32,000 nucleotides of DNA from an uncultured Methanosarcinales archaeon (lineage in GTDB: Archaea; Nanobdellota; Nanobdellia; Woesearchaeales; JANQNQ01): NCBI GenBank assembly GCA_964550525.1, contig CAZJZJ010000002.1, positions 15,618 through 47,617 on the forward strand. The letters are read 5' to 3'. Under the pieces are notes generated by a model. That model was given only the letters and a program-made list of their open reading frames with translations. It did not search any database and was not told the DNA's origin. Positions 17,721-30,091 of this stretch are shown here, in pieces (within the stretch, counting starts at the first letter, position 1; each line of letters begins with the position of its first letter). The translations under genes and the position numbers were made by a program.

Positions 17721-19268
17721 ATGGCTATGTTTAATGATAAGATAAAGGAATACGAGGCTAAAGTCAAGGAGACTGAGCCTAGTCCTGAAGCTGTTAAAAA
17801 GCAGCACGATAAAGGCAAACTTACAGCCAGAGAAAGGATAAAACTCCTTGTAGATTCTAATTCTTTCAATGAAATAGACGCTTTAGTTAAACTAAGATCA
17901 CACAATTTTAATCTTCAGGATAAAAAAAAAGCAGGAGATGCAGTTGTAACAGGTTATGCAACTGTGAATAAAAGGCCTGTTTACTTGTATGCTCAGGATT
18001 TCACTGCAATTGGTGGTTCTTTAGGAGAGATGCATGCTGACAAAATAGTTAAAATAATGAAAGAAGCAGTTAAAACAGGCACACCTTTTGTTGCAATCAA
18101 TGATTCAGGCGGTGCTCGTATACAAGAAGGAGTTAACAGCTTGGATGGTTATGGTAAAATATTCAAAGCAAACACATTTGCTTCTGGAGTAATACCTCAG
18201 ATCTCAGTTATTTTAGGTCCATGTGCAGGCGGTGCTGTTTACTCACCTGCAATTACAGACTTTGTGTTCATGGTCAACAAGCTTAGCCATATGTTCATCA
18301 CAGGCCCCGATGTGATTAAATCTGTAACAGGTGAAGAGATTTCTTTTGAAGACCTGGGTGGAGCTTCTGTTCATAACAAAAAAAGCGGTAATGCACATTT
18401 CTTATGTAAAGATGAAAAACAATGCTTTGAAAAGATCAAACAACTATTATCTTATTTACCTCAAAACAATATGGAAAGTCCTCCTGTAAAAACAACAGGA
18501 GATAGTATAAATAGGAAGAATACTAAACTTAAAGAGATAGTACCAGCAGAGTCAAAACAATCCTATGACATTAAACAAGTCATTGATGAGATTGCAGATA
18601 AAAACACTTTCTTTGAAGTGCATGAACACTTTGCACAAAGCGCTGTAGTGGGTTTTGCACGTCTAGTTGGCAATGTTGTTGGTATAGTAGCTAACCAGCC
18701 TTTGGTTTTAGCTGGTGTACTTGATATTCATTCTTCTGACAAGATTGCACGTTTTGTACGTTTCTGTGATTCATTCAATATTCCTTTAATTACTCTTGTG
18801 GATGTACCTGGTTATTTACCTGGAGTTGAACAAGAACACGGTGGTATAATTAGACATGGTGCAAAGATGTTGTATGCGTTCGCAGAAGCAACTGTGCCTA
18901 AGATTGCTTTAGTTATAAGAAAAGCTTACGGCGGAGCATACATAGCAATGTGTTCTCGTGCTTTAGCTTATGATAAGCTTATTGCATGGCCAACAGCTGA
19001 GATAGCTGTTATGGGTCCTGAACAAGCAGCCAAGATTATTTATCGTAGAGATATAAAAGCTTCAACAGACCCTGCAAAAACAGAAGCAGAGAAAGTATCT
19101 GAGTTCAAAGACAAATTCCTAAATCCATATGTCGCTGCTGAAGAAGGCAGAGTTGACATGGTTATCAATCCAGAAGACAGCAGGCTAACCTTAATCAAAT
19201 GTTTACAAATGCTTCTTACAAAACGCGAGAAAAGAATGCCTAAGAAGCATGGGAATATTCCTTTGTAA
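17721..19268 (+). CDS. pccB: Acyl-CoA carboxylase carboxyltransferase subunit (propionyl-CoA carboxylase beta / methylmalonyl-CoA carboxyltransferase family)
   Basis: Length is 515 aa. Motifs: DSGGARIQEGV, GPCAGGAVYSPA, RKAYGGAYIAM. Confidence 0.92.
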   Translation: MAMFNDKIKEYEAKVKETEPSPEAVKKQHDKGKLTARERIKLLVDSNSFNEIDALVKLRSHNFNLQDKKKAGDAVVTGYATVNKRPVYLYAQDFTAIGGSLGEMHADKIVKIMKEAVKTGTPFVAINDSGGARIQEGVNSLDGYGKIFKANTFASGVIPQISVILGPCAGGAVYSPAITDFVFMVNKLSHMFITGPDVIKSVTGEEISFEDLGGASVHNKKSGNAHFLCKDEKQCFEKIKQLLSYLPQNNMESPPVKTTGDSINRKNTKLKEIVPAESKQSYDIKQVIDEIADKNTFFEVHEHFAQSAVVGFARLVGNVVGIVANQPLVLAGVLDIHSSDKIARFVRFCDSFNIPLITLVDVPGYLPGVEQEHGGIIRHGAKMLYAFAEATVPKIALVIRKAYGGAYIAMCSRALAYDKLIAWPTAEIAVMGPEQAAKIIYRRDIKASTDPAKTEAEKVSEFKDKFLNPYVAAEEGRVDMVINPEDSRLTLIKCLQMLLTKREKRMPKKHGNIPL

Positions 19269-19300
19269 TTAGAATTGTTGGGGGGGCGGAATGATCCAAA

Positions 19301-20203
19301 ATGACATGGGCAGGTATACAAGTTGGGAATGATGGGATGATTGGTAAATATTATCCTTGGCGAATAATGAAAAAAATTCTTTCTGGAGAACTCTCTCCTG
19401 ATTTTGAATATCGTGCTTGGAGATCATTGATTGAAAGATTTGAAAGAGAGGAAAGATTAAAAGAAGGAGGACTGGAGCAAGCAACAAAACAACTTTCTGA
19501 GTCTTTTAGGGATTTATACAGGGTTTTTGGTCGTGAAAACACAGCTAAGGTTCTAGGAATGCTTCAAATTGAATTTCTATATCCTGAAGAACAAAAATCA
19601 ATAATGGAGCAATATGAAGAATTAAAATTAAATGTAGTTAAAAGAAAAAAGGAATTTGACGAGTTTATCAATGTTCTTGAGAATGAAACCAACTGGCTTA
19701 CTGCTCCTGCAAGTACAAGGTATCGTCTAATTGAAGAAGGTGGGTTATTAACACACTCTGTAAGGGTTTGCAATACTTACTTAAAATTACTTCAACTATT
19801 GGCTCCTAATATCTCTGTAGAAAGTGGTACTGTTGATGGTTTATTTCATGATGCAGGTAAAGCAGGCATGCCAGGAGTACCTTATTATATGAAACAGGAA
19901 GATGGGAGTTATATTAAAAACCCAGAGCTTGAAAAAATGCAGCCTGGAATGACTGTAGCTCAAAGAAGTTTACTTTTAATCTCAAATTATATCCCCTTAA
20001 GTCATCAAGAAAGGCAAGCAGTTGAATATCATGATGGTTTGTATAGGCCAGAAAACTGGGCTGTTGCAAATGACGAATACCCTCAAACTATATTGCTTAT
20101 AGCTGCAGATGGCTGGACAGCAGGTGTAACTGACATTAATAAACCTGTTGTAGATGGAAAACCTTTTAATAGGAAAGATGCTCACTCTTTAAAGCGTAAT
20201 TAA
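19301..20203 (+). CDS. HD-superfamily metal-dependent phosphohydrolase
   Basis: GGLLTHSVRV...GLFHDAGKA...AVEYHDG...LLIAADGW gives the H..HD..H..D pattern. The exact start is uncertain. Confidence 0.65.
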   Translation: MTWAGIQVGNDGMIGKYYPWRIMKKILSGELSPDFEYRAWRSLIERFEREERLKEGGLEQATKQLSESFRDLYRVFGRENTAKVLGMLQIEFLYPEEQKSIMEQYEELKLNVVKRKKEFDEFINVLENETNWLTAPASTRYRLIEEGGLLTHSVRVCNTYLKLLQLLAPNISVESGTVDGLFHDAGKAGMPGVPYYMKQEDGSYIKNPELEKMQPGMTVAQRSLLLISNYIPLSHQERQAVEYHDGLYRPENWAVANDEYPQTILLIAADGWTAGVTDINKPVVDGKPFNRKDAHSLKRN

Positions 20204-20216
20204 AGGTGAAATCAAT

Positions 20217-20603
20217 ATGCCACGCAAAATCAAAGTAACTGTGAACAATAAGGATTATGATGTTGGAGTTACTGAGTTAGGAGGCGGAAAGCTAAAACTA
20301 GAGTTAGAGGGTGAATCCTATGAAGTGGATACAAAGGAAGAAGAAACAACCTCTGAGCAAAAAACTGATTCTGTTGAGATTGAATCCAGTGAAAACGTAA
20401 TCAAAGCTCCAATGCCTGGCACAGTCCTTGGAATAAATGTTAAGCCAGGTGATAAAGTCAAGAAAGGCGACCCTGTAGTTACTTTGATAGCTATGAAAAT
20501 GGAAAACAAGATTACTTCTCCGAAAAAAGGCAAAGTCAAGGAAATCAAGGTTAAAGAAGGCCAGAATGTTGAATCAGGGGATGTACTTGTAGTTCTGGAA
20601 TAA
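20217..20603 (+). CDS. accB: Biotin carboxyl carrier protein
   Basis: C-terminal biotinyl domain with the IAMKMENKI attachment motif. AAGGTGA SD. Confidence 0.9.
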   Translation: MPRKIKVTVNNKDYDVGVTELGGGKLKLELEGESYEVDTKEEETTSEQKTDSVEIESSENVIKAPMPGTVLGINVKPGDKVKKGDPVVTLIAMKMENKITSPKKGKVKEIKVKEGQNVESGDVLVVLE

Positions 20604-20737
20604 TTCTATTCTTCCCAATAAATGAACAATTCACCACTCTTAAATGAACTCCATTCCCAAACTTCTCTAAAATAGTGACAAAGCTTTTTATAGCCATGAA
20701 TCAATAATTCACTAACCTTTAAAACGAGGTGACGCGC

Positions 20738-21076
20738 ATGCAAGACATGGTAGGGAAATGGGCCTTCATCATCGGTGTGGTGTTGGCTATAATTGCAGGA
20801 TTCGTCGCTATACCCTTTACAGCGTTTGTACTGGCTGTGTTAGGTTTAGTTGTAGGATTCCTGAACATTACAACTAAGGAAACAAACAATTTCTTGATGG
20901 CAGCTATTGCTTTGCTGGTATTAGGAGCAGCTTCTTTAGGTGCTATTGGAGAAGTGACAGTTCTAAAGATGGTAGCAGAATGGGTTGAATCAATCCTAAC
21001 AAACATAATAGCATTTGTAGCTCCAGCTGCATTGGTAGTTTCTTTAGAAGCAATCTATAAGATAGGTCAAAAATAG
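20738..21076 (+). CDS. Small integral membrane protein
   Basis: ATG lies 6 nt after GAGGTGA. Four hydrophobic segments. Confidence 0.6.
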   Translation: MQDMVGKWAFIIGVVLAIIAGFVAIPFTAFVLAVLGLVVGFLNITTKETNNFLMAAIALLVLGAASLGAIGEVTVLKMVAEWVESILTNIIAFVAPAALVVSLEAIYKIGQK

Positions 21077-21098: not shown

Positions 21099-21323
21099 TT
21101 AACCACTTCTTCCTTTGTTAGCAAATAGAATTCCTATCAGTACAGTCAAGCCCCAAGCTTTCCATACTGTAAGCTTACCAATAACCCCCTTGGTTACGCT
21201 TGGCAGTATCCAATTCCATAACAGGAATACAGGATAAGCAAGTATAAGGCCAACTACAATAGTAAGTCCAAGTGCAACAGCAATCATAGTTGCTTTGTTA
21301 AATATATCTTTCAATAACCCCAT
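21099..21323 (-). CDS. Small membrane protein (74 aa)
   Basis: Start moved to MGLLKD (ATG 21323), preceded by AGGTGAT. The track's longer N-terminus has no SD. Confidence 0.5.
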   Translation of the reverse strand: MGLLKDIFNKATMIAVALGLTIVVGLILAYPVFLLWNWILPSVTKGVIGKLTVWKAWGLTVLIGILFANKGRSG

Positions 21324-21415: not shown

Positions 21416-21811
21416 ATGGAACTTGGTAATGATGACTGGTGTTTTGCATGCGGTAAGTATAATCCGCACGGATTACAACTAGATATAAAGATTGAAGGCA
21501 AGAAATCCTATTTTGAATTCACACCAAAGAAACAGCATCAAGGATATCAAGACTTTCTTCACGGCGGTATAATGTCTACTCTGCTAGATGAAGCAGTTGG
21601 CAACCTTGTTTGGCGGCTTGGATTAGGAGCAGTAACAGCTAAGATAGAAGTAAACCTGAGAAAACCTGTGAAAATAGGAGAAAAACTATTTGTAACCGGC
21701 GAAGTAATCAAAGAACAAGGACGTAAAGTATTCGCAAAATCAGAAGCACGAACAGAAGACGGAGTTGTAGTTGCAGATTGTGAAGCGCTTTTGATTAAGC
21801 TTAAGAAATAG
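21416..21811 (+). CDS. PaaI/4HBT-type hotdog-fold acyl-CoA thioesterase
   Basis: CFACGKYNPHGL, HGGIMSTLLDEA and a length of ~130 aa are typical of PaaI-family thioesterases. Confidence 0.75.
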   Translation: MELGNDDWCFACGKYNPHGLQLDIKIEGKKSYFEFTPKKQHQGYQDFLHGGIMSTLLDEAVGNLVWRLGLGAVTAKIEVNLRKPVKIGEKLFVTGEVIKEQGRKVFAKSEARTEDGVVVADCEALLIKLKK

Positions 21812-22487
21812 TCCCCTCAACAACAACTTCCCTAGAACCATCCTCTTTCTCAACAATTAAATTGCAATCAGAATCAACATCAATAGCTTTGCCGACAATC
21901 TCTCCATTACCGAAAACATCTACTCTTACATCCCTGCCAATTGTGTCAGAAAGCTCTTTCCATTCAGCGATTATTTCTTTTTTGTTTTTTTTATAGTAAT
22001 GTTCAAAGTTTTTTAGAATGTTTTTTATTATCTCTTCTTTATCAAACTCTTTACCTTTAATCTCTTTAACACTAATCCCTTCCTCAACATCATTATTAAC
22101 ATTCAAACCAATTCCAACAACCATCTTACTGTCCTCAGCAACAACATTCTCAGTCAACATCCCGCACAACTTCTTTCCTTCATAAACCAAATCATTTGGC
22201 CACTTGATGCCAGCTTCAACAGAGCAAACCTCAAAAACAGCTTTACGCACAGCAAGCGCTGTAATAAAAGTCATGAATTTCATATTCTCAATCTCTGTCT
22301 TAATAACCAATGACATGTAAACTCCGCCTTCTTCAGAACTCCAGCTACGGTCAAACCTGCCACGACCTTTAGTCTGTTTATCTGCAACTATAGCTGTACC
22401 TACTGGTATTTCTTTTGCTTTATCCATAGTAGAATCCAGTTCCTTGAAATGCATTACTTTAAACATTTTAGAATCTTCCTTGGTCAT
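21801..22487 (-). CDS. birA: Biotin-[acetyl-CoA-carboxylase] ligase
   Basis: KGRGRFDRSW (GRGRxGRxW motif). An alternative start at ATG 22466 lies 1 nt after the accC stop. Confidence 0.88.
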   Translation of the reverse strand: MTKEDSKMFKVMHFKELDSTMDKAKEIPVGTAIVADKQTKGRGRFDRSWSSEEGGVYMSLVIKTEIENMKFMTFITALAVRKAVFEVCSVEAGIKWPNDLVYEGKKLCGMLTENVVAEDSKMVVGIGLNVNNDVEEGISVKEIKGKEFDKEEIIKNILKNFEHYYKKNKKEIIAEWKELSDTIGRDVRVDVFGNGEIVGKAIDVDSDCNLIVEKEDGSREVVVEGTIS

Positions 22488-24453
22488 AAAAATTACCCAG
22501 CATCTGCTGTCTTGATGCCATTACCCATGCACTTTGTTTTTGTGTATAATCAACCTCGCACATTGGATATTGTTCAGTGCCAAGGTACTGTGAAACAGCA
22601 GCAGCAATCACAGCAATCCTTTTACCATTAGTAAGCTCTTCTTTATTTTTAACTTCAAGTATTTTTTTAACTTTATCTAAAATCTTATTCCTTTCAATAA
22701 ATGTAGTGTTTATATTACCGTGCCTGAAATCTTCTGTCTCAAAAGCAACTGAGTGGAATGGGATAGTTGTATCCACACCTTCAATAATATACTCTTCTAA
22801 AGCACGTCTCATTCGTGCAATTGCTTCGTTCCTGTTCTTACCAAAACACATTAATTTTGAAATCATTGAATCGTAATGAGGTGAAATTTTGTAACCAGTA
22901 TGTGAACAACTGCATACTCTAATTCCAGGACCTCCTGGCGGAAGATAATTTGTGATAGTCCCTGGGCAAGGCATGAAATCATTTTCAACACTCTCAGCAT
23001 TAATCCTGCATTCAATTGCCCAACCTCTAAAATGAATATCCTCTTGTTTTAATGTAAGTTTAGCACCTGCAGCAACCTTGATCTGCTCTTTGACAAGATC
23101 AACTCCAGTAATCATCTCTGTAATCCCATGTTCAACCTGTATCCTTGTATTCATCTCCATAAAAAAGAAATTGCCTTTATCATCAAGCAAAAACTCAACA
23201 GTACCAGCACCCTCATAACCAGCAGCTTTGCCTGCTTTAACAGCAGCTTCACCCATAGTTTCCCTTAACTCAGGTGTTAGAGCAACTGAAGGAGCTTCTT
23301 CAATTAGCTTCTGATGTCTTCTTTGAATAGAACATTCTCTTTCACCAAGATGGATTACATTACCATACTGATCTGCCAGCACTTGAAACTCAATATGTCT
23401 AGGTTCTTCAAAATATTTCTCAATATATACATCTTTATTTCCAAAAGAACTTTTTGCTTCAGCCATAGCACTTTTGATAGCAGGCATTAGTTCTTCTTCT
23501 TTATTCACTATCCTCATACCTTTACCACCGCCGCCTGCAGTCGCTTTTACAATAACAGGGTAAACTAGTTCTTTAGCAATCCTTACTGCTTCTTCTTTAT
23601 CCTGTACTGCACCTTCAGTACCAGGTATCACAGGCACACCTACCTCTTTCATTGTATGCCTTGCAATAATCTTATCTCCCATCATCTGGATAGTTCTTTC
23701 TTTCGGCCCGATAAATTTGATGTTATTCTTTTTACACATCCTTGCAAAACCAGCGTTTTCTGCTAAAAACCCATAACCTGGATGCACAGCATCAACATTT
23801 GCTTTCTTAGCAATCTTGATGATTTTAGCTGGGTCAAGATAGCTTCTTGTAGAGCCAATATTATAAGATTCATCTGCGAACTTAACTGCAAGGGAATTCT
23901 TGTCCTCATCTGAATAAACAACTGCAACTTTTACACCTAACTCTCTGGCAGCCCTCATGATCCTTACAGCAATCTCCCCTCTGTTTGCTATCAATATCTT
24001 CCCAAACATTAGCTTAGGCTCAATAGAAGTGAAGTCCACACTCTCTTCTGTCAAACTTCCTACCCCCTTGGTTATTATGTCAAGGAAAGATTCTGGAGGC
24101 TTATCTTTAATCATTTTTCTCCAGTTATCTGTATTAAGTGTAGGCAGTTTTTTTAATAGATTATCTGTAAATATCTCACCGAGACTGTTAAGATCAGTCT
24201 TACCCTTGCCATCTCTCTTACTTGTTTCAATAGTCACAACATGAGACTTAACAACAGACATAACCTGATCATATACCTGTGGAAACCTCCTCTTAGTCTT
24301 CTTAGCCAGTCCAGCCAGCTTCTTAAATCCTCGGTTAAAAGGAGTAAGAAATCTATTCATAGCCTTAGATTCATCCAACCTATCCAATGGTTTCTTAATA
24401 AGTTTATCATACATTGGATTAATCTTTTTTATCTTTGTCATAAAACCACGCAT
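22468..24453 (-). CDS. accC: Biotin carboxylase with a ~148-aa N-terminal and a ~65-aa C-terminal extension
   Basis: The core runs from MFGKILIANRGEIAVRI (aa 149) and includes GGGGKGMRIV and MNTRIQVEH. The extension frames are open with no stop. Confidence 0.9.
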   Translation of the reverse strand: MRGFMTKIKKINPMYDKLIKKPLDRLDESKAMNRFLTPFNRGFKKLAGLAKKTKRRFPQVYDQVMSVVKSHVVTIETSKRDGKGKTDLNSLGEIFTDNLLKKLPTLNTDNWRKMIKDKPPESFLDIITKGVGSLTEESVDFTSIEPKLMFGKILIANRGEIAVRIMRAARELGVKVAVVYSDEDKNSLAVKFADESYNIGSTRSYLDPAKIIKIAKKANVDAVHPGYGFLAENAGFARMCKKNNIKFIGPKERTIQMMGDKIIARHTMKEVGVPVIPGTEGAVQDKEEAVRIAKELVYPVIVKATAGGGGKGMRIVNKEEELMPAIKSAMAEAKSSFGNKDVYIEKYFEEPRHIEFQVLADQYGNVIHLGERECSIQRRHQKLIEEAPSVALTPELRETMGEAAVKAGKAAGYEGAGTVEFLLDDKGNFFFMEMNTRIQVEHGITEMITGVDLVKEQIKVAAGAKLTLKQEDIHFRGWAIECRINAESVENDFMPCPGTITNYLPPGGPGIRVCSCSHTGYKISPHYDSMISKLMCFGKNRNEAIARMRRALEEYIIEGVDTTIPFHSVAFETEDFRHGNINTTFIERNKILDKVKKILEVKNKEELTNGKRIAVIAAAVSQYLGTEQYPMCEVDYTQKQSAWVMASRQQMLGNFYDQGRF

Positions 24454-24599: not shown

Positions 24600-26123
24600 A
24601 TGACAGATTATAATGGTGAAACAAAAGTAGCCAGTCTTGAGGTTATTACTGATAGTACTCGACACGGCACTGCTATTAGGGCACTTGATATTCTAAAACG
24701 TAATCTAGAAACATCTGCTCCTGGTATTTCTTATTCCAGACCAAATGAAGGGGATCATAAAATAATTGACGTTTATTGTACTGCACTTAGTGATAAAGCA
24801 GCAGACCCAGTTGTGGTTCATACAAACCTAGTAAGGCTTTATAATGCATTAAGAGAATTCGAACGAACTGATGGTGGCGGCGGTAAAGTTAAAGTCAGTA
24901 CTAGACTGACAATCTATCCCTTAGGAAACACAAGTGAGTTAAATGAGTATAAAGATGCTAATGCTGAATTAACTGTTGAGAAGGATAAATTTAAAAAACA
25001 GTATGGAGAATCTCAACAAGAAGTCAAAAAAATAGAAGCAGATAATGCAAATAAAGACGAACAAATAGAAGATAAAGACAAAGAACTAGGGAGAAAGGGT
25101 AGGAAGATTACTTCTTTAGAGAGAAGGCTTAAAAAAGCAAAGGGAAAGCTTTCTTCAAAAGGTATATCAACTATATCATATGAAGATTCAGCTACACCAG
25201 AGAATCTTGCAGATGTTTTAGATATAAATAGAGCTGTTTACGAGGATCACGATCAAAAGTGTAGAACTGATTATGTATCTAATGAAGAAAAGTTAATAGA
25301 CGAGGTTTTCTATGAGGCTTCTGAAGAGATTAATACACGAAGATTGTTTAGTGATAATCAATTAGACAAAGCATTGAATCTTATTACTCGTGGAGAAAAC
25401 TATGAAGAGAACTTAAAAAGTTTAGATAACTTACCTTTGACGCCTGAAGAAATCAAAAAGATTAAGGAAGATACTAAACAAAAAGCTGAAGAAAACCTGA
25501 GATGGGCAAGAGAGCTTGAAGGAGCTTATAACAACACTAAGGAATATAAAGTCTTAGTTAGAATTGCAAAGGATGAAGATCAATTGAGAATTGTATTGCC
25601 TGTTGATGCAAAATCAGATAATGAAGTTGTAAAAGCACTATATCAGAGCCTTATTAATAGCCTAAGGGGTTTGAAAGCAAAAGATGATTCAGTATCATAT
25701 TCTGAAATAAAGGATGTGCCTTATACTTCATTCCAAGTAAGCGGAATATCAGATTATGATATGTTGAAAGCAGCTATTACAAAAGGATTAGAAAATGTTG
25801 CTAAAGAAGCTATGCTTACTATTAATACATTTTATACTGACTTTTATGATGGAAGTGTTGCAGAAGCTCAAGCACAACTTGAGTCTTTAGATGAATTTGT
25901 AGATTATCGGATTAAGCAAGTACTAACAAAGCCAGGTACAGAAGAGCATTATAAGGGTAGAACTGAATTCCTTAAAATCAAAGGATTTAATCTGAGCACC
26001 ACTCTGAGCAGAATAAACAATGGCAAAAAGATTAGAGCAACAACCATGCAAAAAATGGCAGATGCTCTTGGTGTCGATGTTTCTGAGTTAGAAAAGAGAT
26101 TACCTACTTCCAAGACTAGCTGA
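24600..26123 (+). CDS. Hypothetical 507-aa protein: N-terminal alpha/beta domain, K/E-rich coiled coil, C-terminal XRE-type helix-turn-helix
   Basis: TGAGGT SD 8 nt upstream. The charged heptad-like region spans aa ~110-185. The C-terminus LSTTLSRINNGKKIRATTMQKMADALGVDVSELEK fits the Cro/C1 HTH pattern. Confidence 0.65.
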   Translation: MTDYNGETKVASLEVITDSTRHGTAIRALDILKRNLETSAPGISYSRPNEGDHKIIDVYCTALSDKAADPVVVHTNLVRLYNALREFERTDGGGGKVKVSTRLTIYPLGNTSELNEYKDANAELTVEKDKFKKQYGESQQEVKKIEADNANKDEQIEDKDKELGRKGRKITSLERRLKKAKGKLSSKGISTISYEDSATPENLADVLDINRAVYEDHDQKCRTDYVSNEEKLIDEVFYEASEEINTRRLFSDNQLDKALNLITRGENYEENLKSLDNLPLTPEEIKKIKEDTKQKAEENLRWARELEGAYNNTKEYKVLVRIAKDEDQLRIVLPVDAKSDNEVVKALYQSLINSLRGLKAKDDSVSYSEIKDVPYTSFQVSGISDYDMLKAAITKGLENVAKEAMLTINTFYTDFYDGSVAEAQAQLESLDEFVDYRIKQVLTKPGTEEHYKGRTEFLKIKGFNLSTTLSRINNGKKIRATTMQKMADALGVDVSELEKRLPTSKTS

Positions 26124-26245
26124 AACCCCAAAAAACCGCTTTCTCAGCCCGTATTAAGTTCTTATACTCTAAAACATAAAACTTTTTAAATAGTAAAAGT
26201 TTTCGCCGTATACTCAGATTTTACCACAATATGGAGGGGGTATAT

Positions 26246-26749
26246 ATGAGCGAGATGATAGATGGACTTAAGGATGAGAATGGTCAGCTTGATCATAATT
26301 CAATCAAGCAGATAATACCATATGATTATCCGTTTTTAATGATAGATAGGGTAATTTTGTTGCAAAAAGACAAGATTATGGCAATAAAGAACGTTACAAT
26401 CAATGAACACTTCTTTAAAGGCCATTTTGCAGGTTTCCCTATTATGCCAGGCGCAATGATGATTGAAGGTATGGGCCAAGCAGCAACTTTGCTTGCTAGG
26501 TATAACCTAGAAAACCATCATGAGAAAGAGTGTCTAGCTTTTAAGATCAAAGACGCTAAATTCATTAAACCTGTATTCCCAGGCGACCAGATGAGGTTTG
26601 AGGTTGCTTTACAGGGTATGAACGAGAAAGGAGCAGCAGTCGCAGGCAAAGTCATTGTCAATGAAGCAGTAGTTGCAGAAGCGATGATGATGATTGCTGT
26701 TGTTGACAGGCAAAGCTTTAGAGCGAAATACAGTGGGATGTTCAAATAA
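26246..26749 (+). CDS. fabZ: FabZ-type 3-hydroxyacyl thioester dehydratase (hotdog fold)
   Basis: Start at the ATG after GGAGGGGG. Motifs: PFLMIDRV, HFFKGHFAGFPIMPGAMMIEGMGQ. Confidence 0.85.
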   Translation: MSEMIDGLKDENGQLDHNSIKQIIPYDYPFLMIDRVILLQKDKIMAIKNVTINEHFFKGHFAGFPIMPGAMMIEGMGQAATLLARYNLENHHEKECLAFKIKDAKFIKPVFPGDQMRFEVALQGMNEKGAAVAGKVIVNEAVVAEAMMMIAVVDRQSFRAKYSGMFK

Positions 26750-26787: not shown

Positions 26788-27909
26788 ATGTACATTGCTG
26801 GCGTTGGAATGACAAAGTTTACCATAAGTAATAAGACTACAATGGATCTAGCTTATGAAGCAGCAGTTGAAGCTTTAGAAGATTCCAACATAAATTATGA
26901 TGATATTGATGCAGTGGTAGTATCTACAGTTGACACTAAATACAATCTTGAGAGGCAGAGACATTATAATTCCTTATTAGCTAGTTTATTCAAAAGAAAG
27001 ATGCCTATTATCCGAACAACTGCTGTATGCGGTGGTGGCGGGCTTGCTTTTTGGCAGGGTTTACGTATGAAATATGATAATGTGCTTGTACTTGCAACAG
27101 ATAAGGTATCTGTGAACAATACCAAAAATATCACAGACGTGATTCTACAAGCTGCAGACCGTATTTGGGAGCAGACAGAAGGTCTTATCTTTCCTGCACA
27201 AAACGCATTAGTAGCACAGCAGCATATGCAGAAATTCGGTACAACCCATGACCAGCTTGCTTTAATCGCCCATAAAAACCATTGTAACGCAGCAATTAAC
27301 CCAAAAGCTCATTTCTATGGCAAGAAGATTGATCTTGATACAATCAAAAACGCACCTGTTGTAGCTTCTCCTTTTACTTTATTCGATTGCAGTATATCTG
27401 TTAACGGAGCTGCTGCTGCTGTTATAACAAACAAAAAAACAGACATAAAAGTTGCAGGCTCAGGTACATGTGTAGACTACTTAGCAACATTTGAACGTGA
27501 AGATATGACAACTTGGAGAGCCACTTTAGAAGCAGCTAGACAAGCATATCAGCAAGCAGGTGTAACTCCTAAAGATGTAGATGTAGCTGAAGTGCATGAC
27601 GCATTTACAATCGTTGAATTAATCGCTTATGAAGACCTAGGTTTTTGCAAAAAAGGTGAAGGCGGTAAGTTTATTGAATCAGGTAAACCATTACTTGATG
27701 GAGAACTACCTGTAAATACAAGCGGCGGATTAAAAGCTAAAGGCCATCCAATATCTCCAACTGGTATGGCACAGATAGTTGAGGTTGTTGAACAGCTTAG
27801 AGGAAAAAGTGGTGATCGTCAGGTTAAAGACGCAAAGATAGGCTTAACTCAGAATATCGGTGGTGCTGGAGGCTCTATTACTGTTAATATTCTTAAGAAG
27901 GTGGATTAA
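26788..27909 (+). CDS. Archaeal/SCP-x-type thiolase (acetyl-CoA acetyltransferase family)
   Basis: Length is 373 aa. It has a nucleophile Cys in TTAVCGGGG, plus HDAFTI, NTSGGLKAKGHPISPTGM and GGAGGS. Confidence 0.88.
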   Translation: MYIAGVGMTKFTISNKTTMDLAYEAAVEALEDSNINYDDIDAVVVSTVDTKYNLERQRHYNSLLASLFKRKMPIIRTTAVCGGGGLAFWQGLRMKYDNVLVLATDKVSVNNTKNITDVILQAADRIWEQTEGLIFPAQNALVAQQHMQKFGTTHDQLALIAHKNHCNAAINPKAHFYGKKIDLDTIKNAPVVASPFTLFDCSISVNGAAAAVITNKKTDIKVAGSGTCVDYLATFEREDMTTWRATLEAARQAYQQAGVTPKDVDVAEVHDAFTIVELIAYEDLGFCKKGEGGKFIESGKPLLDGELPVNTSGGLKAKGHPISPTGMAQIVEVVEQLRGKSGDRQVKDAKIGLTQNIGGAGGSITVNILKKVD

Positions 27910-27910
27910 C

Positions 27911-30091
27911 ATGATTGAAAGATGGGTATGCAAAAAATGTAATAAAAAATGGATCTATCCTGTTGAAAAATGTGTTTATTGTTTTGGTAAGATTGAGAGT
28001 GAAGTAGGTAATAAGATGAAGGTTGTAGGCTTTACTCATGTAAAGATCCCTTCACCTATGCATCCGTTTGTACCTTACAATGTCTTAGTTCTTGAAGATG
28101 AGAACGGCAATAGGATGCCTAAGAAAACAATGAACATGGATTACAAAATCGGGGACGAATTTAAATTCAACACAAGCACAGATCCGCACGCAGTTTCTAT
28201 AGTGAAAATAAAATATAACACAGATCTTGCAGTGAAACAAGCTATAGATTACATCGGCGGGCTAAAGGTTGATAAAGATACAAAGATTATGTTAATACCA
28301 AATATCTTGATGCCAGCAAACTATTATCTTGGTGTTACAACACATCCATTGGTTGTAGCAGCTGTAGTGAAATACCTTGTTGAACATGGCGCTTCTAAAG
28401 ATAATATTGTTGTTGCAGCAAGAGCATTGCCAGGGTTATCTACAGAAAAAGCATTCAAGAAATCAGGTGTAGCTATAACCTGTAAAAAATTAGGACTAAA
28501 GAGCAAACATGTAGAAAAGAGTTCAGGTAAATTTAAGTTTAATATCCCTGAAGAGCTTTTCAATCAAGACCTAATAGTAAATATCCCTGGGTTGAAAACA
28601 CATGCTCAGTTGCAAGTATCAGCTGCTCTAGAAAACATGAGCAGAGTGGTTGACGCAAAAACACTTTACATGATGTACGCAATCAATATCCATGAAGCGA
28701 TTGCACATCTTAACAAGATTGTACCAAAATATTTTACAGTTGCTGATGCTATCAAAGGTATGCATGGTAAAGGCCCTGGTCTTGACGGTGAGCCTGTTTT
28801 CTTTAATTGCGTTACAGCAAGCCACGACCCTGTAGCCCATGATAGAACCTATCAAGAGATGGCAATGTTAAAAGAGCCAGATTACATAAAGATTGCTGCT
28901 AAAGAAGGTGTAGGTGAACGCGACCTAGAAAAAATACCTGATTGCTGCGATGAATTAATGGCATGCAAGATGGAAGTTAAACGTCCTGAAGGTAGCCTAA
29001 GCAACCATCCAACTGTAGAGATTATTGACGGTTTATCCTGTCCAATGGAGGTTGGTATGGTTCAAATGGTTTTAGCAAGATTATTTAAGCATCGAGCTAA
29101 AAAAATCACTGTAGCTGTAGGCAAAGAGCTTACTAAAGAGATGTTTGAAGGTAAAGAGAATATAGTTGCAGTAGGTGATTTAGCTATAAACAAATTAAAA
29201 GAGCTTGGAATAAAAACCATAAAAGATATCCCAGGCAAACCGCCTCAACCTTTAGATGTTGGCGGTACTTTGAAAGAATTACTAGGTGCAGAAAGAAAAG
29301 TTTCTTCTGCGCAAAAAGCTTCTATAGAAGTTAAGCAAGGAGGGATTAAAATGGATCTAAAAGGAAAAGTCGCTTTAGTTACTGGTGCAAGCCAGGGTAT
29401 AGGTAAAGCTATTGCTTTAAAACTAGCTAGCAGAGGTGCTAACATTGTTGTTAATGATATTAAGTCTGCAATAAACAACGCAGTTGTAACTGTAGAAGAG
29501 ATCAAAAAGTTTGGTGTAGATGCAATCTCTGTCGGAGCCAATGTAGCAGATTACAAAGAAGTTGAAGCAATGTATGAAATTGTTAAAGAGAAATTCGGCA
29601 AGGTTGACATAATTGTTAATAATGCAGGAATAACTCGTGATAAAACTCTTAAGAAGATGGATAAGGATATGTGGGAATCAGTTATTGGTGTTAATCTTAC
29701 AGGAATTTATAATGTAAGTAAACTTGGGTTAGAGTTAATCCCTGAAGGAGGCAGAATCATCAGTATTTCTTCAATTGTAGGTCAGAGAGGTAACTTTGGC
29801 CAGACAAATTATTCAGCTTCAAAAGCAGGTATAATCGGATTTACAAGGTCTTTAGCTAAAGAGCTTGGCAAGAAAAAAATTACAGTGAACGCAATTGCTC
29901 CTGGTTTTGTCGAATCAAGAATGACTGCAATGATACCAGAAGAAATGCAAAAGATAATGAAGAGACTAATTGGTTTAGGAAGATTTGCGCAGCCAGAAGA
30001 AGTTGCTAATGTAGTTGCTTTCCTAGCTTCACCAGATGCAGCTTATGTATCCGGCTGCACAGTTAATGTAGATGGTGCAATGTCGCTTTAG
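27911..30091 (+). CDS. Tri-domain fusion: DUF35-like Zn-ribbon/OB fold + DUF362 + 3-oxoacyl reductase (FabG-type SDR)
   Basis: ATG lies 1 nt after the thiolase stop, with AAGGTGGA SD. It contains CKKC..CVYC plus an OB segment, DUF362-like IMLIPNILMP..GVTTHPLVVAAVVKYL and NIPGLKTHAQL, then TGASQGIGKAIA, NNAGI and YSASKAG. An internal GGAGGG precedes ATG 29351. Confidence 0.8.
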   Translation: MIERWVCKKCNKKWIYPVEKCVYCFGKIESEVGNKMKVVGFTHVKIPSPMHPFVPYNVLVLEDENGNRMPKKTMNMDYKIGDEFKFNTSTDPHAVSIVKIKYNTDLAVKQAIDYIGGLKVDKDTKIMLIPNILMPANYYLGVTTHPLVVAAVVKYLVEHGASKDNIVVAARALPGLSTEKAFKKSGVAITCKKLGLKSKHVEKSSGKFKFNIPEELFNQDLIVNIPGLKTHAQLQVSAALENMSRVVDAKTLYMMYAINIHEAIAHLNKIVPKYFTVADAIKGMHGKGPGLDGEPVFFNCVTASHDPVAHDRTYQEMAMLKEPDYIKIAAKEGVGERDLEKIPDCCDELMACKMEVKRPEGSLSNHPTVEIIDGLSCPMEVGMVQMVLARLFKHRAKKITVAVGKELTKEMFEGKENIVAVGDLAINKLKELGIKTIKDIPGKPPQPLDVGGTLKELLGAERKVSSAQKASIEVKQGGIKMDLKGKVALVTGASQGIGKAIALKLASRGANIVVNDIKSAINNAVVTVEEIKKFGVDAISVGANVADYKEVEAMYEIVKEKFGKVDIIVNNAGITRDKTLKKMDKDMWESVIGVNLTGIYNVSKLGLELIPEGGRIISISSIVGQRGNFGQTNYSASKAGIIGFTRSLAKELGKKKITVNAIAPGFVESRMTAMIPEEMQKIMKRLIGLGRFAQPEEVANVVAFLASPDAAYVSGCTVNVDGAMSL

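What the first reader, a model, noticed from the sequence alone, without database searches (positions are those of the whole stretch)
17721..30091. ACP-less fatty-acid-type elongation neighbourhood (carboxylase + thiolase/DUF35 + FabG + FabZ + thioesterase) in an archaeon
Within about 12.4 kb lie a carboxyltransferase, BCCP, biotin carboxylase, BirA and a PaaI-type thioesterase. The same stretch holds a FabZ-type dehydratase, an archaeal-type thiolase and a DUF35-DUF362-FabG fusion. Together these cover extender-unit supply, condensation, ketoreduction, dehydration and product release. The window shows no ACP, no KAS (FabH/B/F), no phosphopantetheinyl transferase and no recognisable enoyl reductase. 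An ACP-independent archaeal pathway built on thiolase/DUF35 has been proposed from comparative genomics but is not biochemically settled. Two aspects are unusual here: the dehydratase is a bacterial-style FabZ hotdog rather than MaoC, and fabZ, thiolase and the fusion are tightly coupled (the fusion ATG is 1 nt after the thiolase stop). No HMG-CoA synthase accompanies the thiolase/DUF35 pair, so this is not the usual mevalonate-pathway trio.
Basis: partly seen in the sequence, partly recalled or inferred. Interest (0 to 1): 0.72.

Follow-up and report, generated by a model that had tools for sequence, protein, structure and literature searches.

The report
Carrier-protein-free fatty acid cluster, DPANN archaeon
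A tiny uncultured archaeon (Woesearchaeota-type) carries a conserved gene island that looks able to build fatty acids on coenzyme A, without the usual carrier protein. In related genomes the same island continues into genes that put fatty acids onto bacterial-style membrane lipids, which is unexpected for a group thought unable to make its own lipids.

Summary
Family searches confirm the carboxyltransferase, BCCP, biotin carboxylase, biotin ligase, hotdog thioesterase, FabZ and an archaeal/SCP-x-type thiolase. One nucleotide after the thiolase stop begins a 726-aa fusion.

Pfam does not recognise DUF35 in the fusion. A confident AlphaFold model does: residues 1-110 have the DUF35 fold and residues ~115-470 (DUF362) have the LarA/lactate-racemase fold. 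A FabG reductase follows.

The organism is a DPANN archaeon. FabZ-thiolase-DUF35/DUF362 recurs in 47 of 58 non-redundant loci of Woesearchaeota/Nanoarchaeota. It is usually glued to the carboxylase and followed by a second thiolase, FabG, two PlsC acyltransferases and GpsA.

The closest relatives add pyruvate:ferredoxin oxidoreductase and an AcrC-like acyl-CoA dehydrogenase with EtfAB, a candidate enoyl-CoA reductase. No ACP, KAS or FabD was found in ~0.9 Mb of these loci.

Best reading: a CoA-based, thiolase/DUF35-scaffolded fatty-acid synthase feeding ester-lipid assembly. It is a new variant of the Sulfolobus archaeal FAS complex.

Untested: ACP elsewhere in the genomes, malonyl-CoA use, and the role of the LarA-like module.

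The parts
17721..19268 (+). Acyl-CoA carboxylase carboxyltransferase subunit (12S/PccB-MmdA type)
   Evidence: Pfam Carboxyl_trans E 2e-190. TIGR01117 scores 783 bits, below its equivalog cut-off. Orthologs in 25 related loci sit in the same position.
20217..20603 (+). Biotin carboxyl carrier protein
   Evidence: Biotin_lipoyl E 2e-22, with the MKM biotinylation motif. Follows the carboxyltransferase gene directly in 25 related loci.
21099..21323 (-). Small conserved two-helix membrane protein ('tm75'), always next to the biotin ligase; function unknown
   Evidence: Family of ~75-aa proteins in 26 loci. The window ORF is listed to 21449, but homology starts at Met43. Not an ACP.
21416..21811 (+). 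Hotdog-fold (4HBT/PaaI-like) acyl-CoA thioesterase
   Evidence: 4HBT E 1e-11; TIGR00369 scores 34 bits, just under its cut-off. In 18 relatives the same slot holds an unrelated YbgC-like 4HBT_2 thioesterase.
21801..22487 (-). Biotin-protein ligase (BirA catalytic type, no repressor domain)
   Evidence: TIGR00121 172 bits (cut-off 83); BPL_LplA_LipB + BPL_C. Present in 38 loci.
22468..24453 (-). Biotin carboxylase with a conserved ~148-aa N-terminal extension
   Evidence: TIGR00514 681 bits (cut-off 626), domains at residues 149-588. The extension is conserved in L010, L013 and L032. Divergent from FabZ in 39 loci.
26231..26749 (+). FabZ-type (R)-3-hydroxyacyl dehydratase (possible start at 26246)
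   Evidence: NF000582 138 bits (cut-off 113). The catalytic His and Glu are conserved in 47/47 family members. Nearest solved structures are bacterial FabZ, E 2e-29. The basic E. coli residues R121/R122/R126 are replaced by D/E/hydrophobic residues.
26788..27909 (+). Thiolase KT1 (SCP-x/archaeal type condensing enzyme)
   Evidence: Thiolase_C_1 E 6e-53; NF004720 363 bits. Nearest structures are 7yvy and the M. thermolithotrophicus thiolase 6esq_A. Cys81, HDAF, GHP and NIGG motifs are conserved in all 39 upstream copies.
27911..30091 (+). Fusion protein: DUF35-like + DUF362 (LarA fold) + FabG
   Evidence: ATG lies 1 nt after the thiolase stop. Only one 90%-identity cluster carries the FabG fusion. 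Confirmed in an independent assembly. In 6 relatives a separate SDR gene starts 2 nt after the DUF362 gene stop.
27911..28240 (+). DUF35-like module (zinc ribbon + OB fold), residues 1-110
   Evidence: CxxC...CxxC ribbon; invariant H51, Y56, D63, G66. Foldseek hits to BbsA 7pxp, 6esq_E, PhlB 5m3k and ChsH2 6ok1: E 3e-5 to 5e-4, TM(target) ~0.5, rmsd 2.5-3.5 A. No Pfam hit.
28253..29320 (+). DUF362 module with LarA (lactate racemase) fold, residues ~115-470; role unknown
   Evidence: PF04015 E 2e-31. Foldseek hits to malate/lactate racemases 7s91, 9eia, 2yjg and 5huq, E 3e-9 to 1e-4. Invariant K229, E241, N242, R245, D279, D311, with no invariant His in the core.
29366..30091 (+). FabG-type 3-ketoacyl reductase domain (SDR), residues 486-726
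   Evidence: TIGR01830 277 bits (cut-off 298); NF009466 246 bits (cut-off 222). The Ser-Tyr-Lys triad is conserved in 44/44 family members. 52-59% identical to the SDRs of related clusters.
30256..30462 (+). Ferredoxin-type delta subunit of 2-oxoacid:ferredoxin oxidoreductase
   Evidence: 68-aa ORF with two 4Fe-4S motifs. Fer4 families recorded for the identical gene in L004.
30459..31514 (+). 2-oxoacid (pyruvate):ferredoxin oxidoreductase alpha subunit, the likely acetyl-CoA supply
   Evidence: POR_N E 1e-54 and PFOR_II. The same POR block lies between the DUF362 gene and the second thiolase in the 7 closest loci. The beta subunit N-terminus is seen just past the window, in L004.

Best explanation
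The region is the front half of a conserved Woesearchaeal 'lipid island'. It most likely builds fatty acyl chains on coenzyme A rather than on an acyl carrier protein.

**Shown**
- The gene families and their intact catalytic residues.
- The DUF35 and LarA folds of the fusion protein.
- The gene order and its conservation across related genomes.
- The absence of ACP, KAS and FabD in the neighbourhoods examined.

**Inferred mechanism, step by step**
1. Pyruvate:ferredoxin oxidoreductase makes acetyl-CoA.
2. The three-subunit biotin carboxylase makes malonyl-CoA. It is served by the adjacent biotin ligase and, in relatives, by BioY/ECF biotin uptake.
3. Thiolase KT1 docks on the DUF35 module of the fusion protein, as thiolases do in the solved thiolase/HMGCS, BbsAB and PhlABC complexes. 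In relatives a paralog, KT2, is also present. The thiolase condenses acyl-CoA with a C2 unit.
4. The FabG domain is covalently tethered to the same scaffold in this lineage. It immediately reduces the 3-ketoacyl-CoA and so pulls the unfavourable condensation forward.
5. FabZ dehydrates the (R)-3-hydroxyacyl-CoA.
6. The enoyl-CoA is reduced by an enzyme outside the window. In the closest relatives the candidate is an AcrC-like acyl-CoA dehydrogenase with EtfAB.
7. The acyl-CoA is used directly by two PlsC-family acyltransferases on glycerol-3-phosphate made by GpsA, or is released by the hotdog thioesterase.

**Open points**
- Whether the C2 donor is malonyl-CoA (decarboxylative) or acetyl-CoA is open, about even odds.
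- The job of the LarA-fold DUF362 module is unknown.
For: **Family assignments and catalytic residues**
- Searches give the family assignments.
- FabZ His/Glu are conserved in 47/47 members.
- The FabG Ser-Tyr-Lys triad is conserved in 44/44 members.
- The thiolase Cys/His motifs are conserved in all 39 upstream copies.

**Folds.** AlphaFold model pLDDT 88. Foldseek gives DUF35 folds taken from thiolase complexes and LarA folds.

**Synteny over 58 non-redundant loci, the window included**
- FabZ-KT-DUF35/DUF362 in 47.
- BirA and BC divergent from FabZ in 38-39.
- CT-BCCP in 25.
- SDR in 39.
- Two PlsC in 24, GpsA in 23.
- In L032, 13 genes from FabZ to GpsA lie head to tail on one strand.

**CoA-specific partners in the same operons**
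- ACAD whose best match is acryloyl-CoA reductase AcrC (523 bits), with EtfB/EtfA.
- Family III CoA-transferase in 12 loci.
- 4HBT thioesterases.

**Lipid context**
- GpsA: NF000942 389 bits against a cut-off of 257.
- A CdsA-like gene in 5 loci.
- FA_desaturase in 3 loci and patatin in 2.

**No ACP**
- An ACP HMM run over every six-frame segment of at least 35 aa in ~0.9 Mb gave a best E of 7.1.
- No ketoacyl-synt, Acyl_transf_1, PP-binding or ACPS appeared among the 25 families that were displayed for the leftover ORFs.
- FabZ residues matching E. coli R121/R122/R126 are D/E/hydrophobic.
- The FabG residue matching R129 is E or D in 27/44. That these are ACP-docking residues rests on my memory of the E. 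coli literature.

**Fusion logic.** In 6 relatives the SDR gene starts 2 nt after the DUF362 gene.

**Biochemical precedent.** In Sulfolobus, KT/DUF35 binds the SDR reductase and the dehydratase (10.1101/2024.07.05.601840).
Against: - Whole genomes could not be searched, so ACP, AcpS, KAS and FabD encoded elsewhere are not excluded.
- FabZ and FabG belong to families whose characterised members use ACP substrates.
- No enoyl reductase is visible in the window or in most related loci.
- Thiolases are not known to use malonyl-CoA, so the tight link to the carboxylase is unexplained under a classical thiolase mechanism. Malonyl-CoA use was disproved for one Sulfolobus thiolase.
- The direction of flux, the chain length and complex formation are not shown.
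- DPANN archaea are generally reported to lack lipid synthesis.
- POR, ACAD/Etf and CoA-transferases also fit a fermentative pathway.
Confidence: 0.66

Rival explanations
1. An ordinary, horizontally acquired bacterial type II fatty-acid synthase. FabZ and FabG work on acyl-ACP, and ACP, AcpS, FabD and the ketosynthases are encoded elsewhere. The thiolases serve another purpose.
For: FabZ passes NCBI's FabZ equivalog cut-off, and FabG passes a FabG subfamily cut-off. The nearest solved structures are bacterial FabZ and FabG. Published surveys list FabG, FabI and FabZ in DPANN genomes as 'ACP pathway' genes. Whole genomes were not searchable.
Against: - No ACP, KAS, FabD or AcpS was found in ~0.9 Mb around 58 loci (window included), although these islands hold everything else from the carboxylase to PlsC.
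- The condensing-enzyme position is always filled by thiolase plus a DUF35 module, and this is translationally coupled to FabZ and FabG.
- CoA-specific ACAD/Etf, CoA-transferase and acyl-CoA thioesterases lie in the same operons.
- The basic residues that I recall as the ACP-docking patch of E. coli FabZ, and R129 of FabG, are acidic or hydrophobic here.
Confidence: 0.12
2. A fermentative reverse beta-oxidation (butyrate or medium-chain acid) pathway used for redox balance: POR, then thiolase, reductase, dehydratase and Bcd/Etf, with CoA-transferase or thioesterase releasing the acid. It would not be lipid synthesis.
For: POR and an AcrC/Bcd-like ACAD with EtfAB lie in the 6-7 closest loci. 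EtfB carries a DGDTAQVGP-type motif that I recall from bifurcating Etfs. CoA-transferases occur in 12 loci (family III) and in about 3 more (family I subunits). Woesearchaeota are described as fermenters.
Against: - An ATP-consuming carboxylase, with its ligase and biotin transporter, is glued to the cluster in 39 loci. That makes no sense for an energy-yielding fermentation.
- GpsA, two PlsC genes, a CdsA-like gene, desaturases and patatin sit in the same operons.
- The chemistry uses the R-specific FabG/FabZ pair rather than Hbd/crotonase.
- ACAD/Etf is confined to one subgroup.
Confidence: 0.1
3. A degradative or salvage pathway: beta-oxidation or remodelling of fatty acids and lipids scavenged from a bacterial host.
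For: Thiolase, ACAD/Etf and, in 4 loci, a crotonase are beta-oxidation families. Patatin-like lipases occur in 2 loci. The literature favours lipid scavenging by DPANN archaea.
Against: - The carboxylase link has no role in degradation.
- No Etf:quinone oxidoreductase or respiratory acceptor was seen.
- No acyl-CoA synthetase is in the conserved set.
- FabZ and FabG are biosynthetic, R-specific families.
- GpsA makes the glycerol-3-phosphate backbone de novo.
Confidence: 0.06
4. The thiolase/DUF35 pair simply supplies acetoacetyl-CoA to an HMG-CoA synthase encoded elsewhere (mevalonate pathway), and the other genes are unrelated neighbours.
For: KT/DUF35 pairs classically serve HMGCS in archaea (6esq). 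HMGCS genes occur in 6 related loci.
Against: - In those 6 loci HMGCS comes with its own thiolase and its own stand-alone, Pfam-positive DUF35 protein. These are additional to KT1, KT2 and the DUF35/DUF362 protein.
- FabZ-KT-DUF35/DUF362 order is fixed in 47 loci, and the gene is fused or coupled to FabG.
- Woesearchaeota are reported to use the MEP pathway.
Confidence: 0.03

Closest known systems
Archaeal fatty acid synthase complex of Sulfolobus acidocaldarius (KT Saci_1121 / DUF35 Saci_1120 + SDR reductase Saci_1104 + MaoC dehydratase Saci_1085; separate enoyl-CoA reductase Saci_1115), bioRxiv 10.1101/2024.07.05.601840
   Same: ACP-independent, CoA-bound intermediates. An SCP-x/archaeal thiolase is paired with a DUF35-fold module. 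An SDR ketoacyl reductase binds through the DUF35 partner; here that link is hard-wired as a fusion, or as a 2-nt gene junction in relatives. An R-specific hotdog dehydratase is present. The enoyl reductase is a separate protein.
   Different: - The dehydratase is FabZ/FabA-family, not MaoC.
- The DUF35 module is not detectable by the Pfam models and is fused to a ~360-aa LarA-fold DUF362 module that is absent in Sulfolobus.
- Two paralogous thiolases are present.
- An acyl-CoA carboxylase is tightly linked. In Sulfolobus it is unlinked, and malonyl-CoA use was disproved for one thiolase.
- The candidate enoyl reductase is ACAD/EtfAB, or unknown, instead of an MDR.
- The cluster continues into GpsA/PlsC ester-lipid genes.
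Thiolase/HMG-CoA synthase/DUF35 complex of Methanothermococcus thermolithotrophicus (PDB 6esq) and related DUF35 assemblies (BbsAB 7pxp, PhlABC 5m3k, MucABC 9vbt, Ltp2-ChsH2 6ok1)
   Same: The thiolase is a sequence relative of 6esq_A (E 3e-60). The fusion's N-terminus superposes on the DUF35 chains. The logic is the same: an unfavourable Claisen condensation is pulled by a tethered downstream enzyme.
   Different: The downstream enzyme is a ketoreductase, not HMGCS. No HMGCS is in the window. Where HMGCS occurs in relatives it has its own thiolase and DUF35 protein.
Bacterial type II fatty acid synthesis (AccABCD, FabD, FabH/B/F, FabG, FabZ, FabI, AcpP) with PlsC/GpsA phospholipid assembly
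   Same: FabZ, FabG, GpsA and PlsC-family proteins fall in the bacterial families. A biotin carboxylase supplies malonyl-CoA. The intermediates have R stereochemistry.
   Different: - No ACP, FabD, KAS or FabI/K/L/V in the clusters.
- The condensing enzyme is a thiolase.
- The carboxyltransferase is the single-chain PccB type.
- The basic residues I recall as the ACP-docking patch of E. coli FabZ and FabG are not conserved.
LarA superfamily (nickel-pincer nucleotide dependent 2-hydroxyacid racemases/epimerases, Pfam DUF2088; DUF362 is in the same clan CL0471, PMC11770544)
   Same: Residues ~115-470 of the fusion have the two-domain LarA fold (Foldseek E down to 3e-9).
   Different: There is no sequence-level match to LarA, and the Pfam family is different. 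There is no invariant histidine in the core, whereas LarA chemistry and nickel binding depend on histidines (my knowledge). No LarB/C/E genes were seen nearby. Function is unknown.
Clostridial butyryl-CoA dehydrogenase/EtfAB and acryloyl-CoA reductase (AcrC-EtfAB)
   Same: The ACAD of the closest relatives scores best against AcrC (523 bits) and is followed by EtfB-EtfA. Such complexes reduce enoyl-CoA.
   Different: It is not in the visible part of the window and is confined to 6 loci. It lies in a lipid-synthesis operon instead of a fermentation operon. The score is below the equivalog cut-off.

Membership tests
Archaeal ACP-independent FAS complex (Sulfolobus type) | SCP-x/archaeal-type ketothiolase with catalytic Cys and His | tested here: met
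   Thiolase_C_1 and NF004720 hits. Cys81, GHP and NIGG are conserved in all 39 upstream copies. Relatives in PDB are 7yvy and 6esq_A.
Archaeal ACP-independent FAS complex (Sulfolobus type) | DUF35 protein encoded next to the thiolase | tested here: met
   Met by fold only: Foldseek to 7pxp_A, 6esq_E, 5m3k_B and 6ok1_B. Zinc ribbon plus OB pattern is present. The Pfam DUF35 models do not hit. The start codon is 1 nt after the thiolase stop.
Archaeal ACP-independent FAS complex (Sulfolobus type) | SDR-type 3-ketoacyl-CoA reductase associated through the DUF35 partner | tested here: inconclusive
   The SDR is present and fused to the DUF35/DUF362 protein. CoA specificity and physical complex formation were not testable.
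Archaeal ACP-independent FAS complex (Sulfolobus type) | MaoC-type hydroxyacyl-CoA dehydratase | tested here: not met
   The dehydratase is FabA/FabZ family; the MaoC model hits only weakly, below its cut-off.
Archaeal ACP-independent FAS complex (Sulfolobus type) | NADPH-dependent MDR enoyl-CoA reductase | tested here: not met
   None in the window. The closest relatives have ACAD + EtfAB instead.
Archaeal ACP-independent FAS complex (Sulfolobus type) | Non-decarboxylative condensation with acetyl-CoA | not testable with these tools
   The carboxylase is syntenic in 39 loci, which hints at malonyl-CoA use. The thiolase motifs are ordinary.
Bacterial type II FAS | Acyl carrier protein (PP-binding) and holo-ACP synthase | tested here: not met
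   ACP HMM over all six-frame segments of the window and 65 fetched loci (duplicates included) gave a best E of 7.1. No PP-binding or ACPS among the displayed families for leftover ORFs. Whole genomes were not testable.
Bacterial type II FAS | Ketoacyl-ACP synthases (FabH/FabB/FabF) and FabD | tested here: not met
   No ketoacyl-synt or Acyl_transf_1 family in the window. None among the conserved or leftover ORFs of the loci; only 25 of 37 leftover-ORF families were displayed.
Bacterial type II FAS | FabZ dehydratase and FabG reductase | tested here: met
   NF000582 138 bits > 113; NF009466 246 bits > 222. Catalytic residues are intact.
Bacterial type II FAS | Enoyl-ACP reductase FabI/K/L/V | tested here: not met
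   None in the window. Only DECR/FabL-like SDRs in L008 and L043, below cut-offs.
Thiolase/HMGCS/DUF35 mevalonate trio | HMG-CoA synthase adjacent to the thiolase and DUF35 genes | tested here: not met
   No HMGCS in the window. In 6 relatives HMGCS has its own thiolase and its own Pfam-positive DUF35 protein.
LarA (nickel-pincer nucleotide racemase) superfamily | LarA two-domain fold | tested here: met
   Foldseek to 7s91, 9eia, 6d6z, 2yjg and 5huq, E 3e-9 to 1e-4. TM is only 0.33-0.42, consistent with a different domain angle.
LarA (nickel-pincer nucleotide racemase) superfamily | DUF2088 sequence family with catalytic and nickel-binding histidines and the cofactor-tethering lysine | tested here: inconclusive
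   The Pfam family is DUF362, not DUF2088. The profile finds no LarA in PDB sequences. There is no invariant His in the core, though K229 is invariant. No residue-level structural alignment was available.
LarA (nickel-pincer nucleotide racemase) superfamily | LarB/LarC/LarE cofactor-synthesis genes in the genome | not tested
   None among the conserved families of the loci.
Biotin-dependent acyl-CoA carboxylase (three-subunit archaeal type) | Biotin carboxylase, BCCP and PccB-type carboxyltransferase, with no membrane decarboxylase beta subunit | tested here: met
   for the three subunits. No OAD_beta-type gene in the window or in the conserved set. Acetyl- versus propionyl-CoA preference was not tested.
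Bacterial-type glycerolipid assembly (GpsA + PlsC), in relatives only | NAD(P)H glycerol-3-phosphate dehydrogenase and lysophosphatidate-type acyltransferases in the same operon | tested here: met
   L032 GpsA: NF000942 389 bits > 257. Two PF01553/TIGR00530-type acyltransferases score 97 and 52 bits, below the cut-off of 103. Present in 23-24 loci. Not visible in the window, which ends first.

The most novel reading that the evidence does not exclude
Woesearchaeota make bacterial-type fatty-acyl ester lipids de novo with a fully ACP-free synthase. In this synthase the LarA-fold DUF362 module, welded to a DUF35 scaffold and here also to FabG, is a new catalytic part. One possibility is that it lets thiolases use malonyl-CoA through decarboxylation-driven condensation. 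Another is that it supplies the enoyl reduction missing from most clusters. Either would be an independently evolved proto-megasynthase that crosses the lipid divide inside the Archaea.
Probability: 0.25. Interest if true: 0.88.

Novelty: new variant of a known kind. Interest (0 to 1): 0.72.

Why it matters
- **DPANN lipid autonomy.** DPANN archaea are widely described as unable to make their own membrane lipids. Archaea in general are said to lack fatty-acid-based ester lipids (the 'lipid divide'). Here one operon-like island, conserved in roughly 50 species-level genomes, encodes a plausible route from pyruvate to phosphatidic acid. It has no acyl carrier protein and uses a thiolase/DUF35 core.
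- **Extension of the archaeal FAS idea.** If functional, it extends the recently reconstituted Sulfolobus 'archaeal FAS complex' to a second, chimeric design with bacterial FabZ/FabG and a carboxylase link.
- **Genetic support for the complex.** The natural gene fusion supports the scaffold-reductase interaction that was seen biochemically.
- **A first context for DUF362.** The large DUF362 family (about 3,300 representative clusters at E<=1e-10) gets its first concrete functional context.
- **Biomarker interpretation.** It also bears on how environmental lipid biomarkers are assigned to organisms.

Tried and rejected
1. **Pfam and NCBIfam search for DUF35 in the fusion N-terminus.** No hit even at E<1. 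Resolved by structure prediction instead.
2. **Profile of the DUF35/DUF362 family against PDB sequences.** Only a chance hit, 2npn at E 1.5. LarA catalytic residues could therefore not be mapped.
4. **Seeing downstream of the window.** Every contig of this population stops ~450 nt past the window end. The 61-kb NCBI copy could not be fetched.
5. **HDAF as a sign of decarboxylative chemistry.** The thiolases have HDAF in place of the SCP2-thiolase HDCF motif. I rejected this as evidence because the solved thiolases 7yvy and BbsB also have HDAF.
6. **Split KT1 genes in L001 and L003 as stop-codon recoding.** Rejected. They are frameshifts at different positions, probably assembly errors between paralogs.
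7. **Short DUF362 form (~377 aa) correlating with ACAD/Etf.** Not strict: L026, L027, L053 and L054 have the short form without ACAD.
8. **The conserved 75-aa ORF beside BirA as a hidden carrier protein.** Rejected. It is a two-helix membrane protein.
9. **Supplements of two DPANN genomics papers searched for ACP, FabD or KAS.** Nothing held.
10. **PHA synthesis and 3-hydroxypropionate/4-hydroxybutyrate-type CO2 fixation.** Rejected for lack of PhaC, malonyl-CoA reductase or 4-hydroxybutyryl-CoA dehydratase in the conserved set.
11. **Rfam and tRNA scans of the window.** Nothing found.
12. **Published list of FabZ-ACP contact residues.** Could not be retrieved. That argument rests on memory.

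Full report
**Observation.** Pfam and NCBIfam give:
- a PccB/MmdA-type carboxyltransferase (17721-19268, +);
- BCCP (20217-20603, +);
- a 4HBT/PaaI-like hotdog thioesterase (21416-21811, +);
- a biotin-protein ligase (21801-22487, -);
- a biotin carboxylase with a 148-aa N-terminal extension (22468-24453, -);
- FabZ (26231-26749, +; NF000582 above its cut-off);
- an SCP-x/archaeal-type thiolase (26788-27909, +);
- a 726-aa protein (27911-30091, +) with DUF362 at residues 127-313 and a FabG-type SDR at residues 486-725.

The thiolase stop (27907-27909) and the fusion ATG (27911) are 1 nt apart. All aligned homologs start at the same Met. An independent JGI assembly reads through the DUF362-FabG junction at 100% identity, so the fusion is not an assembly artefact. 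TFIIB, a Cdc6/Orc1-type ATPase and an archaeal helicase domain lie on the same contig, and GC is even across it. The contig is therefore archaeal and shows no sign of being chimeric. No ACP, ketosynthase, PPTase or enoyl reductase is in the window.

**One correction: DUF35.** Pfam does not see DUF35 in the N-terminus even at E<1. I aligned the first 485 residues with 37 homologs and predicted the structure (pLDDT 88, pTM 0.87). Foldseek against the PDB splits the model in two.
- Residues ~1-110 (CxxC...CxxC ribbon plus OB fold) match the DUF35 chains of thiolase assemblies. These include BbsA 7pxp, the M. thermolithotrophicus thiolase/HMGCS complex 6esq_E, PhlB 5m3k, ChsH2 6ok1 and MucB 9vbt.
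- Residues ~115-470 match lactate and malate racemases of the LarA family (E down to 3e-9).

DUF362 and LarA's DUF2088 belong to one Pfam clan (PMC11770544). The DUF362 core here has invariant K229, E241, N242, R245, D279 and D311 but no invariant histidine. LarA-type nickel-pincer chemistry is therefore doubtful, and the function stays unknown.

**Who has it.** The ~480-aa DUF35/DUF362 protein occurs in about 65 clusters, named Woesearchaeota, Pacearchaeota or Nanoarchaeota where a name exists. Only the window's own cluster carries the FabG fusion. An exhaustive profile search finds about 40 representative clusters of the DUF35-fused form and about 3,300 DUF362 proteins in all at E<=1e-10. 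A scan of one genome per species returned 58 loci, 57 of them from DPANN archaea.

**Neighbourhood.** I called ORFs in all loci, mapped them with the window's proteins and clustered them. Among 58 non-redundant loci, the window included:
- FabZ-thiolase-DUF35/DUF362 in that order in 47;
- biotin ligase and biotin carboxylase divergent from FabZ in 38-39;
- carboxyltransferase-BCCP in 25, often with BioY/ECF biotin uptake;
- a second thiolase (KT2) downstream in nearly all loci that extend far enough;
- a FabG-type SDR in 39;
- a methyltransferase in 23, sometimes fused to the SDR;
- a family III CoA-transferase in 12;
- two PlsC-family acyltransferases in 24;
- a GpsA glycerol-3-phosphate dehydrogenase in 23 (NF000942 above its cut-off).

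Scattered extra members are a CdsA-like cytidylyltransferase (5 loci), membrane fatty-acid desaturases (3), patatin-like lipases (2) and a MaoC protein (1). In 6 loci the SDR gene starts 2 nt after the DUF362 gene stop. The window's fusion is therefore a simple merger of two coupled genes.

**The closest relatives.** The seven loci closest to the window are 46-50% identical in the DUF35/DUF362 protein. They carry pyruvate:ferredoxin oxidoreductase genes right after the DUF362 gene, as the window does. L039 shows no ACAD or Etf. In the other six the order continues KT2, FabG, a 384-aa acyl-CoA dehydrogenase whose best model is the clostridial acryloyl-CoA reductase AcrC (523 bits), EtfB, EtfA, PlsC, PlsC, GpsA. 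In L032, 13 genes from FabZ to GpsA run head to tail on one strand. The window ends inside this stretch. The POR beta N-terminus is visible 400 nt further on in L004. All contigs of this population stop there, so the enoyl reductase and the lipid-assembly genes of this organism could not be seen.

**Is it ACP-free?**
- An HMM built from five ACPs was run without filters over every six-frame segment of at least 35 aa in the window and 65 fetched loci (some duplicates; ~0.9 Mb). It found nothing better than E = 7.
- The conserved gene families and the 52 leftover ORFs inside the clusters include no ketosynthase, FabD, PP-binding or ACPS family among those displayed.
- The conserved 75-aa ORF beside BirA is a two-helix membrane protein, not a carrier.
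- The operon partners are CoA-specific families: thiolase, ACAD, CoA-transferase and 4HBT thioesterase.
- As a further lead I aligned E. coli FabZ and FabG (sequences verified against 6n3p and 1i01) with the archaeal families. FabZ positions R121/R122/R126 are D (32/47), E (33/47) and hydrophobic (47/47). FabG R129 is E or D in 27/44 and R172 is variable. That these residues form the ACP-docking patches is from my memory of the E. coli literature and could not be re-read here.
- Catalytic residues are intact: FabZ His/Glu 47/47, FabG Ser/Tyr/Lys 44/44, and thiolase Cys/HDAF/GHP/N-x-GG in all 39 upstream copies.
- Whole genomes could not be searched. ACP elsewhere remains the main uncertainty.

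**Mechanism proposed.** The closest worked-out system is the Sulfolobus acidocaldarius complex. There a ketothiolase/DUF35 pair binds an SDR ketoacyl-CoA reductase and a MaoC dehydratase, and the enoyl-CoA reductase is separate (bioRxiv 10.1101/2024.07.05.601840). I propose the same logic here.
1. KT1 (with KT2) docks on the DUF35 module.
2. The tethered FabG domain reduces the 3-ketoacyl-CoA at once and pulls the unfavourable condensation forward.
3. FabZ dehydrates the product.
4. ACAD/EtfAB, or an unknown enzyme in other lineages, reduces the enoyl-CoA.
5. The acyl-CoA goes to PlsC-type acyltransferases on GpsA-made glycerol-3-phosphate, or is released by the thioesterase.

Folds, families, order and conservation are shown. 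Complex formation, CoA specificity, direction and chain length are inferred.

**Differences from Sulfolobus.** The dehydratase is FabZ rather than MaoC. The scaffold carries a LarA-fold module. The enoyl reductase differs. Most strikingly, an ATP-dependent carboxylase is linked in 39 loci. In Sulfolobus the carboxylase is unlinked, and malonyl-CoA use was disproved for one thiolase. Either these thiolases use malonyl-CoA in some new way or the carboxylase link has another reason. I rate this as an open question at even odds. The HDAF motif (Ala in place of the SCP2-thiolase base Cys) is not evidence either way, because the solved thiolases 7yvy and BbsB share it.

**Rivals.**
- An ordinary type II FAS with ACP and KAS encoded elsewhere is not excluded. 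It fits poorly with the thiolase/DUF35 core and the CoA-specific partners (confidence 0.12).
- A fermentative reverse beta-oxidation fits POR, ACAD/Etf and the CoA-transferases. It does not fit the ATP-consuming carboxylase or the GpsA, PlsC, CdsA-like and desaturase genes (0.10).
- Degradation or salvage fits even less well (0.06).
- The mevalonate reading is contradicted by six loci in which HMGCS has its own thiolase and its own Pfam-positive DUF35 protein beside this cluster (0.03).

**What is known.** Earlier surveys noted FabG, FabI and FabZ, GpsA and 'bacterial fatty acid synthesis' genes in Woesearchaeota (PMC10936187, PMC8204110, PMC6431249). Other work assumes DPANN archaea cannot make lipid building blocks (PMC11868695). 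In the searchable library I found no description of the thiolase/DUF35/DUF362 core, its carboxylase link or its ACP-free character. I therefore rate it a new variant of a known kind, the archaeal ACP-independent FAS. It has a real chance of holding a new component, the LarA-fold module.

**Verdict.** Interest is 0.72. The finding makes the question 'can DPANN archaea build bacterial-type lipids themselves, and without ACP?' directly testable with a defined set of about 13 genes.

Noticed in passing
window 19301-20203(+), 24600-26123(+), 31511-32000(+) (continues to L004 8367): Three lineage-specific ORFs of unknown function sit inside the otherwise conserved island. The first is a 300-aa protein with HD-like motifs but no family hit. 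The second is a 507-aa coiled-coil protein with a weak C-terminal HTH. The third is a 266-aa protein that splits POR alpha from POR beta. They are unrelated to each other, absent from all 57 related loci and slightly lower in GC (0.34-0.36 against 0.37-0.39).
   Followed up: partly
window 21099-21323(-); 26 related loci: A conserved ~75-aa two-helix membrane protein is always encoded next to the biotin ligase in the carboxylase block. It has no family assignment and is not an ACP.
   Followed up: partly
window 24010-24453(-) (N-terminal 148 aa of the biotin carboxylase): The biotin carboxylase carries a basic N-terminal extension of ~120-148 aa with no Pfam hit. The extension is conserved in the closest relatives, and the family's median length is 637 aa.
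   Followed up: partly
window 21416-21811(+) versus L010 5298-5690 and 17 other loci: The thioesterase slot between the small membrane protein and BirA is filled by non-homologous hotdog thioesterases: PaaI/4HBT-like in the window and YbgC-like 4HBT_2 in 18 relatives. This suggests selection for the function rather than for the gene.
   Followed up: yes
L001 8929-10004; L003 9185-10003 (also L007, L017, L022, L025, L043): The upstream thiolase gene is broken by frameshifts at different positions in several groundwater MAGs. This is probably mis-assembly between the KT1 and KT2 paralogs rather than recoding.
   Followed up: partly
L004, L063, L064 ends (~450 nt beyond window position 32000): All assemblies of this population break at the same point, at the start of POR beta. 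This hints at a repeat or a strain-variable segment there.
   Followed up: no
L001 14422-16143 and 22 other loci: A SAM-dependent methyltransferase belongs to the cluster. In about 8 loci it is fused to a second FabG-like SDR (~570 aa), reminiscent of the C-methyltransferase/ketoreductase pairing of polyketide synthases. It may be the 'cyclopropane fatty acid synthase' reported in Woesearchaeota.
   Followed up: partly
L005, L008, L027, L043, L057, L059: A separate HMG-CoA synthase, thiolase and canonical DUF35 protein lie next to the cluster. In three of these loci the two subunits of a family I CoA-transferase follow.
   Followed up: partly
L008 19243-20031; L043 19411-20229: Extra SDRs score best against 2,4-dienoyl-CoA reductase and also hit FabL models, all below cut-offs. 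They are possible alternative enoyl reductases in the lineages that lack ACAD/Etf.
   Followed up: partly
L011, L017, L018, L024, L026, L047, L049, L051: A dihydrolipoamide-dehydrogenase-like flavoprotein is inserted on the opposite strand between KT2 and the methyltransferase. In 4 of these loci a crotonase-family enoyl-CoA hydratase is also present.
   Followed up: no
window 3875-4888(-) and 8479-10017(+): An ARPP-1 domain protein (E 8e-101) is flanked by unannotated small ORFs. Separately, a two-domain protein joins an Asn_synthase-type PP-loop domain to a diphthamide-synthase domain.
   Followed up: no
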